Positions 5,315 through 34,954 of a stretch of DNA of 62,168 nt are shown in pieces. Positions within the stretch are counted from its first letter, which is position 1, and the number at the start of each line of letters is the position of its first letter. Where the stretch lies: NCBI GenBank assembly GCA_030426945.1, contig JAUHXL010000001.1, positions 1 to 62,168 on the forward strand, in the 5' to 3' direction. The DNA is from a bacterium. GTDB lineage: Bacteria; Myxococcota_A; Bradymonadia; UBA7976; UBA1532. A program made the position numbers and the translations under genes. Under the pieces are notes generated by a model, which was not told the origin of the DNA, did no database searches, and worked only from the letters and a program-made list of their open reading frames with translations.

Positions 5315-5330
5315 CGGCACCGGGCTTGCA
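5315..5330 (+). promoter_or_regulatory. sigma54 (-24/-12) promoter upstream of fliJ
   Basis: CGGCAC-CGGGC-TTGCA, compared with the consensus TGGCAC-N5-TTGCA. GG/GC spacing is exact. It lies about 45 nt upstream of the fliJ ATG. Confidence 0.65.
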
Positions 5331-5374
5331 GAACGGCGACCTCGAGACGCTGGACACCGACCGGCGAGGATCCG

Positions 5375-5809
5375 ATGAAGCGCTTCACGTTCCGGTTCGC
5401 CGCGGTGCTCAAGCAGCGCACCGCCCTGCTCGATCAGGCGAAGGCCGAGCTCGGCGACGCGATCGCGCGCTGCAACCTGGCCGTCGACATCCTGACGCGC
5501 CGGCGTCAGGACCTGACCACCCTCACCACGCAGAGCCCCGAGGCGGGCCTGCCCTTCGACCCGCAGCGCGAGGTCGTCCGCCAGCGGCACCTCGGCGCGC
5601 TGCGCGACGAGCTCGTGCGTCGGCAGCAGATGGTCGAGCGCCTCGAGAAGGTCGTCGACGCCGCGCGCGAGAAGGTGGCCGCCGCGCACCGCGGGCTGCG
5701 AGCCATCGAGCTGCTCGAGGAGCGCGACCGAGAGGCGTGGAAGGCCGAGGCGCGGCGCCTCGAACAGCAGGAGAATGACGAGCGGAACGCGCAGCGCTTC
5801 GGCCGATGA
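5375..5809 (+). CDS. fliJ: flagellar export protein FliJ
   Basis: A 144-aa all-coiled-coil protein. The N-terminal FRFAAVLKQR and the C-terminal ..LEERDREAWKAEARRLEQQENDE.. fit the FliJ family pattern. A GAGGA Shine-Dalgarno lies 5 nt upstream. Confidence 0.72.
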   Translation: MKRFTFRFAAVLKQRTALLDQAKAELGDAIARCNLAVDILTRRRQDLTTLTTQSPEAGLPFDPQREVVRQRHLGALRDELVRRQQMVERLEKVVDAAREKVAAAHRGLRAIELLEERDREAWKAEARRLEQQENDERNAQRFGR

Positions 5810-5839
5810 GGCCCGCCCCGCGCTGGGCCGACCCTGCGG

Positions 5840-6592
5840 TCAGACCGCCTTGCGCAGCCGCTTGCGCAACGTCTGCACCGCCTGCGTGTGCAGCTGGCTG
5901 ATGCGGCTCTCGGTGAGATCGAGCACCCGCCCGATCTCCTTGAAGTTCAGCTCGTTGTAGTAATAGAGCGACATCACCAGCTTCAGCCGCTCCGGCAGCG
6001 CGTCGAGGGCCTCGACGAGCGCCTCCCGCAGCTCCCGGAAGAACGTGTGCCCAAACGGATCTTCCGGGCGGGCCTGGCTTAACAGCTCCCAGGGCACCTC
6101 GGTCGCGTCCGCCGCGATGGCGCTCAGATCCTCGAGGGTCAGGAAGGCCACCTGCCCGGTGCTGGCCAGGACGCTCTCGACATCGCTCGCGTCGAGGCCC
6201 GTGTCCTCGGCCAGCTCCGCCACCGTCGGCTGCCGCCCCAGCTGGTTCTCGAGCCGCTGCCGCGCGCGCTCGAGCTTGTTGGCTTTGCCGCGCGCCGTCC
6301 GGGACATGAAGTCGTACGAGCGCAGCTCGTCGAGCATCGCCCCCTTGATGCGGAACTCGGCGTAGGCTTCGAAGCGGCTGCCCTTGGTCGCATCGAAGTT
6401 GTCGATGGCGTGCAACAGACCGATGGTGCCGACGGAGATCAGATCCTCGACCTCGACCGACGGCGGCAGGCGATGGATGAGACGGTAGGCCACCTTCTTG
6501 ACGAGCGGCGCGTACTTGCGCACCTGCTCCTCTTGCTGCCGACGCTTCGAGAGCGCGGCGTTCTTCTGGTAGGCCTGTATCCCGTGCTTCAT
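5840..6592 (-). CDS. fliA: flagellar sigma factor FliA (sigma28, FliA/WhiG family)
   Basis: Region 2 (LISVGTIGLLHAIDNFD, RFEAYAEFRIKGAMLDELR) and a region 4 HTH (LYYYNELNFKEIGRVLDLTESRISQLH) are present. It sits directly downstream of flhF-flhG. Confidence 0.92.
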   Translation of the reverse strand: MKHGIQAYQKNAALSKRRQQEEQVRKYAPLVKKVAYRLIHRLPPSVEVEDLISVGTIGLLHAIDNFDATKGSRFEAYAEFRIKGAMLDELRSYDFMSRTARGKANKLERARQRLENQLGRQPTVAELAEDTGLDASDVESVLASTGQVAFLTLEDLSAIAADATEVPWELLSQARPEDPFGHTFFRELREALVEALDALPERLKLVMSLYYYNELNFKEIGRVLDLTESRISQLHTQAVQTLRKRLRKAV

Positions 6593-6625
6593 CGCCGGTC
6601 TCTCAGAGGGCTGTCAGGCACCCTC

Positions 6626-32445: not shown

Positions 32446-33884
32446 GGCAGCCGGTCTTCGGCCACCGCCTGATTGCGACCGCTCTGTTTCGCGACGTAGA
32501 CGCATTGATCCGCGCGCTCGAAGACCTGAGCGAAGGGCTCGTGCCCCCGCACCAGGGCCACCCCGATGCTGGTGCTCACCGCGATGTCGTGGCCATCATG
32601 GTGGACCGGCTTCGCGGCCAGCAGGCGGCAGATGCGGTCGGCGACGGCGCCGCCGATACGCAGATCGCAGTCCGGCAGGACGATCACGAACTCTTCGCCC
32701 CCGTAGCGGGCCAGGAAGTCGATCTCCCGAATGCCCAGCTTGAGTCGGCGCGCGGCCTCGGCCAGAACGCGGTCGCCGCCGAGGTGGCCGTAGGTGTCGT
32801 TGACGCGCTTGAAGTGATCGAGATCGAGCACGAGCACGCAGTACGCCCGCTCCAGGCGACCGTCTCCATCGTAGAGCGTCGACGACACCCACTGATCGAG
32901 GGCCCGGCGGTTGGGCACGCGCGTGAGGGGATCGAGGTTCATCGCCGCGCGCGTCTCGCTCAGCTTCCGCTCGAGCTGCTCGATCTGGTTCTGCGAGGTC
33001 TGCACCTTCTGGCTCAGATCGGTCAGGTGCGACTTCATCGTGGCCGCGCTGCGCGCCGCCTCGGCCGTCTCGGCGACCAGGGCCTTCTGCAGCGTGCGCA
33101 GCTCGCCGAGGTCGTTGCACGCCTCGAGCCGCGCGCGGATGGCGGAGGCACGATCGACGAACTCGTCCGAGCCCGCCGAGGCCGCGCTCAGCTGCTCGGC
33201 CAGCGCACGCAGGACGTCCTTGATGACGGTCTTCTGCTCGTGGACCGGCAGCCCGGTTTGCTCGAAGCGCGCCAGGTGCCCGCTGAGCTCGACGCGCAGG
33301 TTCTGAATCGTCGCCGCGTCGCTGTCCTTCAGCTGGCCCCGAATGGTCGAGAAGGTCTGCCCCACCTCGGGCAGATCGACGAAGGCGCGCCCGATGAAGT
33401 CCACGCAGCTGGCGGCCAGACCCTCGAGCTGCTCGGCGCGCCGGCGGCACTCACGGAGCGTCCGCACCTCATCGCTCGCCGACGCCCGCCGACGGGCGGC
33501 GAAGCCCTCGATCACCTCCAGATGGGGCAAGGCCTCCGCCAGCAGCGCCGACTGGCTCAGACCGCGCAGGGCCGGCACCACCTCGTCCCGGTGGACGCCC
33601 GCCGGATCCGCCGCCGGCACCAGCTGGCAGACCACCGTGCCGAGGCGCTCGACGATCTCCGACTCGCGCTCGCCCTGTCCGCTCGCCGCCCGCCCCGTCA
33701 TGACCTGAAGATCATCGACGATGCGCCGCATCTCGTCGCGCGGCAGACCCCCTTCGGCCGGCACCGCGCGGAGGCGAGCCAACGCCGACCCGAGATCCGG
33801 CCGCGCTGCCCCCGCGACCCGCGCCAATGCGGCGACGAGGACCCCGACCTCGTCGTCGATTCGAACCCGCCCTGCGTCCGCCAC
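32442..33884 (-). CDS. diguanylate cyclase (coiled-coil sensor region plus GGDEF domain with an intact active site and I-site)
   Basis: The C-terminal domain reads LVLDLDHFKRVNDTYGHLGGDRVLAE...REIDFLARYGGEEFVIVL. GGEEF is the A-site. The RxxD motif (REID) lies 5 residues upstream and is the I-site. Confidence 0.9.
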   Translation of the reverse strand: MADAGRVRIDDEVGVLVAALARVAGAARPDLGSALARLRAVPAEGGLPRDEMRRIVDDLQVMTGRAASGQGERESEIVERLGTVVCQLVPAADPAGVHRDEVVPALRGLSQSALLAEALPHLEVIEGFAARRRASASDEVRTLRECRRRAEQLEGLAASCVDFIGRAFVDLPEVGQTFSTIRGQLKDSDAATIQNLRVELSGHLARFEQTGLPVHEQKTVIKDVLRALAEQLSAASAGSDEFVDRASAIRARLEACNDLGELRTLQKALVAETAEAARSAATMKSHLTDLSQKVQTSQNQIEQLERKLSETRAAMNLDPLTRVPNRRALDQWVSSTLYDGDGRLERAYCVLVLDLDHFKRVNDTYGHLGGDRVLAEAARRLKLGIREIDFLARYGGEEFVIVLPDCDLRIGGAVADRICRLLAAKPVHHDGHDIAVSTSIGVALVRGHEPFAQVFERADQCVYVAKQSGRNQAVAEDRLP

Positions 33885-33904
33885 CGTCGCCTCCTGCCCC
33901 TGAC

Positions 33905-34888
33905 TTACTCGTCGGGATTGAGCATCCCGCGCTTCTTCAGCTTCTCGACCAAGGTCGTGCGGTTCATTTGCAAGAGCGCGGCCGCCTGGTTCTTGTTCCA
34001 GTTCGTCCGCTCCAGAGCCTGACGGATGAGCTTCTCCTCGAGCGACGACAGCAGCTGCCGCAGATCGAGGCCCTCGTCCGGGAGGTCAACCGGTACTTCG
34101 TCGTTTGCGCCGCCGCGCTTGAGAATCTTGGGCGGAAGATCCTCAGCGTCGACGATCTCATCGCAGCAGAAGACCGACAGCCGCTCGACCACGTTCTCGA
34201 GCTCGCGCACGTTGCCGGGCCACGGATAGGCGATCAGGCAGGTCATCGCCTGGTCCGTGAAGCCGCGGACCGAGCGACGCCGCGTCCGTGCCAGCCGCTC
34301 GTTGAAGAAGTCCATCAGCCGCGGGATGTCGCTGCGCCGCGCCCGCAGCGGCGGCAGCTGAATCTCGACCACGTTGAGTCGGTAGTAGAGATCCTCCCGG
34401 AACCGCCCCTCGGCCACCTCGGCCTCGAGATCGCGGTTGGTGGCCGCCACCACGCGCACGTCGACGTGCACGGTGCGCGTGCCCCCCACCGGCTCGAAGC
34501 AGCGTTCCTGCAGCACCCGCAGCAGCTTGACCTGCAGGGTCGGGCTCATCTCCCCGATCTCGTCGAGGAAGATGGTGCCGCCGTCCGCCAGCTCGAAGCG
34601 GCCCTGTCGGCCCGCGCTGGCCCCGGTGAACGCGCCCTTGACGTGTCCGAACAGCTCGCTCTCGAGCAGGTTCTCCGGAATGGCCCCACAGTTGATGGGC
34701 ACCATCGGGCGGTCGCGTCGGTCGCCCCGCTCGTGGATGGCGCGGGCGACCAGCTCCTTGCCCGTCCCGCTCTCGCCGAGGATGAGGCAGGAGCTGTCGG
34801 TCGGCGCGACCTTGTCGACGACGCGCAGCACCCGCTTCATCGACGGATCCTCGCCCACCAGCGGTCGGGACAGGTTCTCGTGGGTCAC
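33905..34888 (-). CDS. sigma54-dependent transcriptional activator (AAA+ plus Fis-type HTH, with no receiver or sensor domain; PspF-like architecture)
   Basis: The GTG at 34888 has a GGAG Shine-Dalgarno 8 nt upstream. Walker A is GESGTGKE. The GAFTGA loop is present (HVKGAFTGA). The C-terminal HTH reads [22 protein letters not shown]. The ORF 5' extension to 35305 is low-complexity shadow. Confidence 0.88.
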
Positions 34889-34924
34889 TGGGGCGACTCC
34901 GAAAGGGGTGGCGCGTGCGGGCCG

Positions 34925-34954
34925 ATTCTCGGACGCCCGCCGGCGCCCTGTCAA
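34925..34954 (-). promoter_or_regulatory. sigma70-type promoter candidate for the activator-GGDEF-TPR operon
   Basis: The minus strand reads TTGACA-N18-GAGAAT, about 30-35 nt upstream of the GTG start. Confidence 0.4.

What the first reader, a model, noticed from the sequence alone, without database searches (positions are those of the whole stretch)
5315..34954. Large flagellar core cluster in a gliding-type, very GC-rich genome context
Twenty-seven contiguous flagellar genes are present. They cover the rod, MS and C rings, the export gate and ATPase, the hook, FlhF/FlhG and FliA. Their order resembles the Bacillus and spirochete fla operon, including FlbB/YlxF-like and 'flagellar operon protein' genes.

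Only about 2 kb (dapF and an L3 gene) separate this cluster from a Glt/Nfs-like machine, which is typical of Myxococcota. Classical myxobacteria are non-flagellated. The precedent I recall for both systems in one organism is Bdellovibrio, which has much lower GC.

The window lacks motA/motB, flgF/G/H/I, flgK/L, fliC/D/S and the che genes. The apparatus is therefore either completed elsewhere in the genome or is a partial or repurposed type III secretion machine.
Basis: partly seen in the sequence, partly recalled or inferred. Interest (0 to 1): 0.72.

Follow-up and report, generated by a model that had tools for sequence, protein, structure and literature searches.

The report
Flagellar core operon in uncultured Myxococcota
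This is an intact, selectively maintained set of flagellum-building genes lying next to gliding-motility genes in an uncultured relative of the myxobacteria; that combination has already been described in other members of the phylum, so it is a sound but fairly ordinary find.

Summary
On the minus strand, 5840-29818, there are 24 intact flagellar genes in fla-operon order (flgB to fliA). A relocated fliJ lies at 5375-5809 (+). A promoter-proximal module lies upstream: a sigma-54 activator, a GGDEF cyclase and a TPR protein. About 2 kb further on (dapF, rplC) lies a compact Glt-like gliding cluster.

The contig is a whole MAG contig. Its nearest relatives (FlhA 96%, then 72-84%) are uncultured 'Myxococcales/Myxococcota bacterium' MAGs. 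The cluster is not decaying:
- dN/dS is 0.03-0.15 for most genes.
- Catalytic, torque and CheY-binding motifs are intact.
- Gene order and sigma-54 promoters are conserved in independent assemblies.
- FlhA forms one clade of Myxococcota-labelled MAGs.

A sister MAG has the same flanks but only FliN-like genes and FlhG left, which shows what a real relic looks like.

The missing genes (motAB, flgFGHI, flgKL, fliC, che) are also absent from the Bacillus fla/che operon. I could not search the rest of the genome for them.

The novelty claim fails. Anaeromyxobacter (2008) and Persicimonas caeni (2020, flagella seen by EM, 'flagella and gliding') are Myxococcota precedents. Verdict: new member of a known kind, modest interest.

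The parts
5375..5809 (+). fliJ, relocated: convergent with fliA and divergent from rpoZ
   Evidence: PF02050 FliJ E=2.6e-13. Same position and orientation in L003, L005, L087 and L088.
5315..5329 (+). sigma-54-type promoter-like site (CGGCAC-N5-TTGC) 46 nt upstream of fliJ
   Evidence: Conserved upstream of fliJ in L003 (16020-16034).
5840..6592 (-). fliA (sigma-28)
   Evidence: Sigma70 r2/r3/r4 domains. Named FliA/WhiG in the >90% identity cluster. dN/dS 0.036.
6626..7483 (-). flhG (MinD/ParA-type ATPase)
   Evidence: ParA/CbiA/AAA_31. Deviant Walker A SGKGGVGKT.
7580..9025 (-). flhF (SRP-type GTPase)
   Evidence: PF00448 E=1.3e-30. G motifs GPTGVGKTT, DTTGR and TKTDE intact.
9212..9226 (-). 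sigma-54-type promoter-like site in the flhA-flhF intergenic region
   Evidence: Counterparts in L003 and L005.
9242..11437 (-). flhA (export gate)
   Evidence: FHIPEP 905 bits. 96% identical to FlhA of GCA_020633465.1.
11450..12643 (-). flhB (export switch)
   Evidence: PF01312 382 bits. NPTH autocleavage site present.
12714..12728 (-). sigma-54-type promoter-like site in the fliR-flhB intergenic region
   Evidence: Conserved in L003 and in L005 (FlhA 73%).
12747..14632 (-). fliR (12747-13562), fliQ (13573-13842), fliP (13844-14632)
   Evidence: PF01311, PF01313 and PF00813. dN/dS 0.03-0.10.
14690..16168 (-). fliO, unusually long (492 aa): N-terminal secreted extension and Ala/Pro/Glu-rich linker before the FliO domain
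   Evidence: PF04347 at residues 282-352. 480-579 aa in relatives. dN/dS 0.34.
16303..17719 (-). fliN (16303-16578) and fliM (16667-17719), C ring
   Evidence: PF01052 and PF02154. FliM N-terminus LSQNEIDALL is the CheY-P binding motif.
17730..18254 (-). fliL
   Evidence: PF03748 E=2.5e-19.
18369..18401 (-). intrinsic terminator between flgE and fliL (13-bp stem followed by a T-rich tail)
   Evidence: Folding energy -38.2 kcal/mol, z = -6.5. A similar hairpin sits in the same gap in L005.
18936..20228 (-). flgE (hook)
   Evidence: Flg_bb_rod, D1, FlgE_D2 and Flg_bbr_C domains. Start set by relatives (430 aa) and a Shine-Dalgarno sequence.
20433..20843 (-). 'flagellar operon protein' (PF12611)
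   Evidence: E=4.6e-11.
20966..22863 (-). flgD (20966-21637) and fliK (21649-22863)
   Evidence: FlgD, FlgD_ig and Flg_hook domains.
21837..21851 (-). sigma-54-type promoter-like site inside the fliK 3' end, about 200 nt upstream of flgD
   Evidence: Conservation not shown.
22934..23617 (-). YlxF/FlbB-like gene: signal peptide, coiled coil and MgtE_N domain; start overlaps the fliI stop
   Evidence: PF03448 E=9.8e-6. Sequence read.
23614..26748 (-). fliI (23614-24960), fliH (24953-25672), fliG (25726-26748)
   Evidence: FliI Walker A and B intact; FliG C-terminal charged residues K/R/E-D/K aligned to the E. coli torque residues by eye.
26841..29818 (-). fliF (26841-28493), fliE (28636-28959), flgC (28971-29408), flgB (29408-29818)
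   Evidence: Start codons.
29875..29889 (-). sigma-54-type promoter (TGGCACGCATCTCGC) 57 nt upstream of flgB
   Evidence: The identical 15-mer lies 56 nt upstream of flgB in L089 (FlhA 75%).
29998..32505 (-). secreted TPR protein (about 811-835 aa), candidate flagellum-associated periplasmic protein
   Evidence: TPR Pfam hits. Signal-peptide-like N-terminus. EBP-TPR-flgB order conserved in L089, L090 and L092; the gene is missing together with the flagellar genes in L091.
32442..33884 (-). GGDEF diguanylate cyclase with GGEEF active site and RxxD I-site
   Evidence: PF00990 E=4.5e-43. Motifs read. Present in L092 (96% relative), absent in L089, L090 and L091.
33905..34954 (-). sigma-54 enhancer-binding protein with AAA+ and Fis-type HTH only, no receiver domain (likely start 34840 or 34888)
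   Evidence: 313-397 aa in relatives.
35088..36614 (.). dapF (35088-35873, +) and rplC/L3 (35946-36614, -), housekeeping spacers
37000..48420 (-). Glt-like gliding cluster: GltJ-like 37000-39024, GltF/CglF-like 39279-39563, GltE-like 39657-41045, GltD-size TPR 41042-44443, GltC-like 44434-46353, OMP_myx_plus barrel 46355-47164, VWA protein 47146-48420
   Evidence: Same order in L089, L091 and L092.

Best explanation
The region is the early/middle-gene core of a working bacterial flagellum in an uncultured, high-GC Myxococcota lineage that also carries a Glt-type gliding apparatus.

**What the genes build.** They encode the following parts:
- MS ring: FliF.
- C ring and switch: FliG, FliM, FliN.
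- Export gate and ATPase: FlhAB, FliOPQR, FliHIJ.
- Proximal rod: FlgB, FlgC, FliE.
- Hook with its cap and ruler: FlgE, FlgD, FliK.
- FliL.
- Polar number and placement pair: FlhF, FlhG.
- Late sigma factor: FliA.

**How it is probably expressed (inferred).** A receiver-less sigma-54 activator encoded at the head of the cluster drives several sigma-54 promoters, upstream of flgB, flgD, flhB, flhF and fliJ. A strong terminator after flgE splits the cluster into at least two transcription units. FliA, made last, then turns on late genes located elsewhere (flagellin, stators, chemotaxis). A neighbouring diguanylate cyclase offers c-di-GMP input.

**Origin.** The cluster was inherited vertically in a large clade of Myxococcota MAGs and has been lost in some sister lineages.
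For: **Shown**
- All 25 genes hit the expected Pfam families, and none shows a frameshift or premature stop.
- Functional motifs are kept: FliI Walker A and B, FlhB NPTH, FlhF and FlhG nucleotide motifs, FliM LSQNEIDALL, and the FliG charged ridge.
- Against the 96% relative, dN/dS is 0.03-0.15 for 14 of 16 genes at dS 0.12-0.42.
- Identical gene order occurs in GCA_020633465.1, GCA_945875905.1 and GCA_030427205.1. It is largely shared by a JGI contig and by a Bradymonadia-labelled MAG, including the anchors rpoZ and rplC-dapF.
- Six of seven sigma-54 consensus matches in 62 kb lie in the cluster on the coding strand, most just upstream of gene starts. Four are conserved in relatives, one identically at 75% FlhA identity.
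- There is a terminator after flgE.
- An FlhA neighbour-joining tree puts the window inside one clade that holds all but one of the Myxococcota-labelled sequences sampled.
- A sister MAG (GCA_020633555.1) keeps the Glt, rplC, dapF, EBP, rpoZ and KS flanks at 43-78% identity. Of the flagellar genes it retains only FlhG, FliN and a FliMN_C fragment.

**Literature**
- Flagella together with gliding genes in Anaeromyxobacter.
- EM-visible flagella plus gliding in Persicimonas caeni.
- Flagellins among the highly expressed genes in predator MAGs that include Myxococcota.
Against: - No stator, distal rod, L/P ring, hook-junction, filament, cap, FlgM or chemotaxis gene was seen. This applies to the window and to the +/-10 kb fetched around FlhA, GltJ or L3 in six relatives. 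Their presence elsewhere in this genome is inferred, not shown.
- No organism of this lineage is cultured, so no flagellum has been seen.
- The promoter assignments are consensus matches with positional conservation only.
- The tree has no support values.
Confidence: 0.8

Rival explanations
1. The cluster encodes a filament-less or non-rotating derivative of the flagellum. This would be a hook-basal-body used for secretion, adhesion or envelope functions, with no stators or flagellin anywhere in the genome.
For: - No late or stator genes appear in 62 kb or in the fetched flanks of relatives.
- Myxococcota are known to keep non-flagellar T3SS-like machines that include FliO homologues (PMC12248157).
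- A sister MAG retains FliN-like and FlhG genes after losing everything else, so parts can have other uses.
Against: - The FliG torque-generating charged residues, FliL, the FliM CheY-binding N-terminus, FliA and FlhF/FlhG are all kept under strong purifying selection. That would be hard to explain without rotation, chemotaxis and late genes.
- The B. subtilis fla/che operon likewise lacks the same late and stator genes (established knowledge).
Confidence: 0.1
2. The cluster is a relic on its way to loss in a gliding lineage.
For: - Classical myxobacteria lack flagella.
- Loss has happened at this very locus in GCA_020633555.1.
Against: - The ORFs are intact and the motifs are intact.
- dN/dS is 0.03-0.15.
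- Synteny and promoters are conserved across relatives down to 58-75% FlhA identity.
- The true relic looks completely different.
Confidence: 0.03
3. The juxtaposition is an assembly or binning artefact, or a recent horizontal acquisition from a non-myxobacterial donor such as Desulfuromonadia.
For: - Outside the Myxococcota-labelled clade, the named FlhA hits closest by identity are Desulfuromonas, Geoalkalibacter and Geothermobacter at 55-58%.
- One Myxococcota-labelled MAG groups with Desulfotalea.
Against: - Flagellar and Glt genes are contiguous on one contig in at least three further independent assemblies.
- GC content stays high (62-77% per 2-kb window) with no break at the cluster boundaries.
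- The cluster is anchored between the housekeeping genes rpoZ and rplC/dapF in deep relatives.
- FlhA relatives form a graded series from 96% to 57% within Myxococcota-labelled MAGs.
Confidence: 0.05

Closest known systems
Anaeromyxobacter dehalogenans 2CP-C flagellar cluster (Thomas et al. 2008, PMC2330069)
   Same: It is a high-GC member of the Myxococcota with flagellar genes, A-motility (gliding) genes and type IV pilus genes in one genome. The authors argued for vertical inheritance and noted affinity to Desulfuromonas clusters.
   Different: - There, one 55.7-kb cluster also holds motAB, fliC and che genes, and was reported to lack fliJ and fliK.
- Here the late genes are not in the cluster, while fliJ and fliK are present.
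Persicimonas caeni YN101 (Bradymonadales, Myxococcota; PMC7188933)
   Same: It is a cultured Myxococcota reported as motile by 'flagella and gliding', with flagella seen by EM and flhA, flhB, flhF, fliN, motAB and flgH in the genome. A Bradymonadia-labelled MAG shares the rplC-dapF-EBP-TPR-flgB and flhA...fliJ-rpoZ synteny with the window.
   Different: - Its GC content is 63.8%, against 71% here.
- Its locus organisation was not examined here.
- In the Bradymonadia-labelled MAG, the Glt cluster is not next to rplC.
Bacillus subtilis fla/che operon and the spirochaete flgB operon
   Same: The gene order matches: flgB-flgC-fliE-fliF-fliG-fliH-fliI-(ylxF)-fliK-flgD-flgE-fliL-fliM-fliN/Y-fliO-fliP-fliQ-fliR-flhB-flhA-flhF-flhG-...-sigma-28. 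The YlxF/FlbB-like gene and the PF12611 gene are included. Those operons also lack motAB (in Bacillus), flgKL, flagellin and the distal rod genes (established knowledge; order here).
   Different: - fliJ is moved to the far end on the other strand.
- There is no flbD/swrD, and no cheY or che block.
- Several sigma-54-type promoter-like sites and a dedicated enhancer-binding protein appear to take the place of sigma-A control (the sigma-A comparison is from my own knowledge).
Sigma-54-dependent flagellar hierarchies of polar flagellates with FlhF/FlhG (Pseudomonas FleQ, Vibrio FlrA, Geobacter FgrM; from my own knowledge, not checked in papers here)
   Same: An enhancer-binding protein sits at the head of the cluster. 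There are -24/-12 promoters before early and middle operons. FlhF and FlhG are present, and FliA comes last.
   Different: The activator here has no N-terminal regulatory or receiver domain. Its partner signal is unknown.
Myxococcus xanthus Glt/Agl gliding machinery
   Same: Best NCBIfam hits are to GltJ, CglF/GltF, GltE and GltC, plus an OMP_myx_plus barrel. PDB hits are to the AgmX (GltJ) GYF and zinc-ribbon domains.
   Different: - All equivalog scores are far below the cut-offs (for example GltJ 178 against 450).
- The G1 and G2 cluster genes are fused into one compact operon.
- No GltG/H/I/K or AglRQS was found in the window.

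Membership tests
Bacterial flagellum (as opposed to a non-flagellar T3SS) | Flagellum-specific rod, hook, hook cap and hook ruler (FlgB, FlgC, FliE, FlgE, FlgD, FliK) | tested here: met
   Pfam hits above gathering scores.
Bacterial flagellum (as opposed to a non-flagellar T3SS) | Switch complex with FliG (torque residues) and FliM (CheY-P binding motif) | tested here: met
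   FliG_N, FliG_M and FliG_C domains, and FliM with FliMN_C. Motifs read; FliG was aligned to E. coli by eye.
Bacterial flagellum (as opposed to a non-flagellar T3SS) | Export apparatus FlhAB, FliOPQR and FliHIJ | tested here: met
Bacterial flagellum (as opposed to a non-flagellar T3SS) | Stator MotA/MotB, distal rod FlgF/G, junction FlgK/L, filament FliC and cap FliD in the genome | not testable with these tools
   None is in the window or in the fetched flanks.
fla-type (Bacillus/spirochaete) core operon | Collinear order from flgB to sigma-28, with YlxF/FlbB and PF12611 genes | tested here: met
   Exceptions: fliJ is relocated, and there are no flbD or che genes.
Sigma-54-dependent flagellar regulon | Dedicated enhancer-binding protein plus -24/-12 promoters upstream of flagellar operons | tested here: inconclusive
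   The enhancer-binding protein is present. Consensus sites are enriched, positioned and conserved. There is no expression or binding data, and rpoN is not in the window.
Glt/Agl gliding machinery of Myxococcus | Orthologues of GltA-K reaching NCBIfam equivalog cut-offs | tested here: not met
   GltJ 178 against 450, GltE 102 against 225, GltC 185 against 450, CglF 39 against 90. These are best hits but below the cut-offs, so they are divergent homologues.
Glt/Agl gliding machinery of Myxococcus | GltJ domain architecture (zinc ribbon, GYF, AgmX/PglI C-terminal tail) | tested here: met
Glt/Agl gliding machinery of Myxococcus | AglRQS proton-channel motor | not testable with these tools
   It is not in the window, and the genome could not be searched.
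Phylum Myxococcota | Marker proteins closest to Myxococcota genomes | tested here: met
   Named hits for L3, GltJ and FlhA are all Myxococcales, Myxococcota, Bradymonadia or Polyangia MAGs down to about 57-60% identity. No GTDB placement was possible.

The most novel reading that the evidence does not exclude
In this uncultured clade the gliding cluster and the flagellar cluster form one conserved, same-strand 'dual-motility island': Glt genes, rplC, the sigma-54 activator, a TPR protein, then flgB to fliA. The receiver-less activator, together with the c-di-GMP cyclase in this species, would arbitrate between swimming and gliding. The conserved secreted 811-835 aa TPR protein, which is lost together with the flagellar genes in the relic locus, would be a previously undescribed periplasmic component of the Myxococcota flagellar motor.
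Probability: 0.15. Interest if true: 0.55.

Novelty: new member of a known kind. Interest (0 to 1): 0.3.

Why it matters
It adds a well-resolved example, conserved over several assemblies, to the growing evidence that flagella are ancestral and still widespread in uncultured Myxococcota. The non-flagellated state of textbook myxobacteria is then a derived loss.

Two genomes carry the same chromosomal site, one with an intact 29-kb cluster and one with a 3-gene remnant. Together they give a clean natural comparison for studying how flagella are lost.

The lineage could also be a place to ask how one cell coordinates swimming and Glt-type gliding. None of this overturns current understanding.

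Tried and rejected
1. **Genome-wide search for late genes.** It returned only relatives at 57% identity or less and none of the close MAGs. I found no other route to the rest of the MAG.
2. **Identifying the window's own assembly.** Exact look-ups of its FliG and GltJ gene calls were not on record. A FliQ look-up gave only short Logan contigs.
3. **Late genes next to FlhA, GltJ or L3 in relatives.** Nine look-ups across six relatives showed none.
4. **A flbD-like gene or RNA in the 680-nt flgE-fliL gap.**
   - The two candidate ORFs gave no Pfam hit.
   - No Rfam family matched anywhere in the window.
   - The candidate 57-aa ORF shows non-synonymous-type changes in the 96% relative, and the gap is not conserved in the 73% relative.
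   - I read it as a 3' UTR with a terminator, followed by the fliL promoter region.
5. **An AMIN or LysM domain in the long FliO**, as reported for some Myxococcota. Pfam found nothing even at E up to 5.
6. **Sigma-28 promoter scan.** Only 2-3-mismatch matches, 19 against 10.5 expected by chance and not positioned before genes. Uninformative.
7. **PDB sequence search with the TPR protein.** No meaningful hit.
8. **dN/dS against the 73% relative.** Synonymous sites are near saturation, so I did not use it.
9. **Literature search for the assembly accession.** Nothing found.

Full report
**What is in the sequence**

The window is GC-rich: 71% overall and 62-77% per 2 kb. Raw ORF lists are therefore useless. 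I called genes by third-position GC and scanned them against Pfam.

On the minus strand, from 29818 down to 5840, there are 24 flagellar genes:
- rod and MS ring: flgB, flgC, fliE, fliF
- switch and ATPase complex: fliG, fliH, fliI
- a secreted coiled-coil/MgtE_N protein of the YlxF/FlbB kind, whose start overlaps the fliI stop
- hook genes: fliK, flgD, a PF12611 'flagellar operon protein', flgE
- fliL, fliM, fliN
- export gate: fliO, fliP, fliQ, fliR, flhB, flhA
- placement and late control: flhF, flhG, fliA

fliJ is not after fliI. It sits at 5375-5809 on the plus strand, convergent with fliA and divergent from rpoZ.

Upstream of flgB lie a secreted TPR protein (about 811-835 aa), a GGDEF cyclase with an intact GGEEF active site and RxxD I-site, and a sigma-54 enhancer-binding protein. 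That activator consists only of the AAA+ and HTH domains.

I find 25 flagellar genes plus these three.

Next come dapF (35088-35873, +) and a genuine bacterial L3 gene. After them, on the same strand as the flagellar genes, lies a compact gliding-type cluster. Its members best match GltJ, CglF/GltF, GltE and GltC, plus a GltD-sized TPR protein, an OMP_myx_plus barrel and a VWA protein. The GltJ-like protein also matches the solved GYF and zinc-ribbon domains of M. xanthus AgmX. All NCBIfam Glt scores are below the equivalog cut-offs, so these are divergent homologues.

**Whose DNA it is**

Exact-sequence look-ups show that the window is a complete 62,168-bp contig of an NCBI genome. Its proteins cluster at over 90% identity with proteins of 'MAG: Myxococcales bacterium'.

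The closest FlhA (96%) is on the 380-kb contig JACKDN010000007.1 of GCA_020633465.1. About 30 further FlhA relatives at 72-84% come from metagenomes or from Myxococcales/Myxococcota MAGs. A second tier lies at 61-64%. A Bradymonadia-labelled MAG and Desulfuromonadia follow at 55-58%.

L3 and GltJ searches give the same picture, and no cultured genus is named among the best 120 hits of any of the three searches. The lineage is therefore an uncultured Myxococcota group. I could not obtain a GTDB placement.

**Is the cluster alive?**

Yes, by every test I could run.
- All genes are full length, with no frameshift or premature stop.
- These motifs are intact: FliI Walker A and B, the FlhB NPTH autocleavage site, the FlhF and FlhG nucleotide motifs, the FliM N-terminal LSQNEIDALL (the CheY-P docking motif), and the charged residues of the FliG C-terminal helix that face MotA.
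- Against the 96% relative, synonymous divergence is 0.12-0.42. dN/dS is 0.03-0.15 for 14 of 16 genes; FliJ is 0.20 and FliO 0.34.
- Gene order is identical in GCA_020633465.1, GCA_945875905.1 (FlhA 73%) and GCA_030427205.1 (75%).
- The order is largely kept in a 495-kb JGI contig (61%) and in the Bradymonadia-labelled GCA_046290225.1 (58%). Odd details recur there too: the relocated fliJ beside rpoZ, and the rplC-dapF-activator-TPR-flgB head.
- A rough neighbour-joining FlhA tree puts the window in one clade with all but one of the Myxococcota-labelled sequences (no support values).

Together these results argue for vertical inheritance and against recent transfer or mis-assembly.

**A natural control**

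GCA_020633555.1, another Myxococcales MAG, has the same flanks: OMP-GltC-GltD-GltE-GltF-GltJ-rplC-dapF-activator on one side and rpoZ, the small gene and KR-KS on the other. Between them it has only a FliMN_C fragment, a FliN-like gene and FlhG.

tblastn with all window proteins confirms flank identities of 43-78%. It finds only FlhG (57%) and FliN (42%) of the 25 flagellar genes, and the TPR gene is gone too. This is what loss looks like at this locus, and the window looks nothing like it.

**How it probably works**

Seven matches to TGGCAC-N5-TTGC (one mismatch allowed) occur in the window, against 2.9 expected. Six lie in the cluster on the coding strand:
- 57 nt before flgB
- in the fliR-flhB gap
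- in the flhA-flhF gap
- 46 nt before fliJ
- about 200 nt before flgD
- inside flhB, upstream of flhA

The flgB site is identical in the 75% relative. The flhB, flhF and fliJ sites recur in relatives.

A 13-bp-stem terminator (-38 kcal/mol, z = -6.5) follows flgE, and a similar hairpin is present in the 73% relative.

From this I infer a sigma-54 hierarchy headed by the receiver-less activator, with at least two transcription units. FlhF and FlhG would set polar number and position. FliA would be made last, to switch on late genes elsewhere. The cyclase, shared only with the 96% relative, would add c-di-GMP input. These steps are inferred from sequence and from established knowledge of such hierarchies; nothing was measured.

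**The missing genes**

The window holds no motAB, flgFGHI, flgKL, fliCDS or che genes. The +/-10 kb that I could fetch around FlhA, GltJ or L3 in relatives holds none either.

The Bacillus fla/che operon also lacks motAB, flgKL, flagellin, fliDS and the distal rod genes (established knowledge). Absence from this operon therefore says little.

Retention under selection of FliA, FliL, the CheY-binding motif and the torque residues implies partners elsewhere. I could not read the rest of the genome: the single genome scan saturated and the look-ups are local. This remains the main gap.

**Comparison with what is known**

The literature shows otherwise.
- Thomas et al. 2008 described a 55.7-kb flagellar cluster with motAB and fliC in Anaeromyxobacter dehalogenans 2CP-C, a high-GC myxobacterium. 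The genome also carries 28 A-motility and 17 type IV pilus gene homologues, and swimming was seen in strain K. The authors proposed a flagellated myxobacterial ancestor.
- Persicimonas caeni (Bradymonadales) is cultured, shows flagella by EM, and is listed as motile by 'flagella and gliding'.
- Zodletone Myxococcota MAGs encode flagellar assembly.
- MAGs of Myxococcota and Bdellovibrionota from a seamount frequently had flagellin and pilus genes among their most highly expressed genes.
- A FliO survey includes Myxococcota FliO variants.

The finding is thus a new member of a known kind.

The less familiar elements are:
- the conserved same-strand adjacency of the Glt and flagellar clusters, in the window and its relatives down to at least 75% FlhA identity, and in the relic locus, but not in the Bradymonadia-labelled MAG;
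- the conserved activator-TPR head;
- the intact and relic pair of loci.

**Verdict**

- Observation: confirmed.
- Interpretation: partly supported. The taxon and gene content are right. The novelty premise is wrong. The 'repurposed T3SS' alternative is unlikely.
- Interest: about 0.3.

Noticed in passing
L091 (GCA_020633555.1, JACKDL010000001.1) 11657-15200, compared with window 5375-34954: A sister Myxococcales MAG has the same Glt, rplC, dapF, activator, rpoZ and KS flanks. The flagellar cluster there is reduced to a FliMN_C fragment, a FliN-like gene and FlhG. This is a relic, or a retained sub-module, at the orthologous site.
   Followed up: partly
window 35946-36614 (-): A bona fide bacterial L3 gene (TIGR03625 above its cut-off) stands alone between GltJ and dapF, not in an S10 ribosomal operon. 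The position is conserved in L089, L090, L091 and L092. I did not determine whether it is the only rplC copy.
   Followed up: partly
window 18402-18935 (-): About 530 nt lie between the flgE stop and a strong terminator, with no convincing ORF, no Pfam hit for the candidate ORFs and no Rfam hit. The stretch is conserved only in the 96% relative. It is where flbD (and motAB in spirochaetes) sit in other fla operons.
   Followed up: partly
window 14690-16168 (-): FliO is 492 aa (480-579 aa in relatives). It has a secreted N-terminal region of about 130 aa, an Ala/Pro/Glu-rich linker and a long acidic/basic tail. It is the fastest-evolving gene of the cluster (dN/dS 0.34). No AMIN or LysM domain was detectable by Pfam.
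   Followed up: partly
window 4224-4676 (+): A small conserved protein starts VSLSADAALRILERRYDY..., has an acidic Pro/Glu-rich middle and a basic C-terminus, and has no family assignment. It lies beside rpoZ and fliJ in L003, L005 and L088; L091 has a weakly similar gene (33% identity) in that position, and L087 has an unrelated one.
   Followed up: no
window 48613-57913 (+): Four consecutive large proteins (530-1033 aa) carry ASH, HYDIN, Cep192-type Ig and DUF1573 domains. They are divergent from the VWA/Glt genes. An ASH-type gene occupies the same position in L089.
   Followed up: no
window 47146-48420 (-): A VWA-domain protein heads the Glt-like operon, next to the outer-membrane barrel. 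This is reminiscent, from memory only, of the M. xanthus gliding adhesin CglB. Not tested.
   Followed up: no
window 1-3902 (+): The left end holds a ketoacyl-synthase gene, cut by the contig end, and a 2,4-dienoyl-CoA-reductase-like flavoprotein. Relatives carry KS-AT-KS-KR genes here, and the repeated KS domains may explain the contig break.
   Followed up: no
window 32442-33884 (-): The GGDEF cyclase between the activator and the TPR gene is present only in the window and its 96% relative (L092). It is absent from L089, L090 and L091, so it is a recent insertion into the regulatory head of the cluster.
   Followed up: yes
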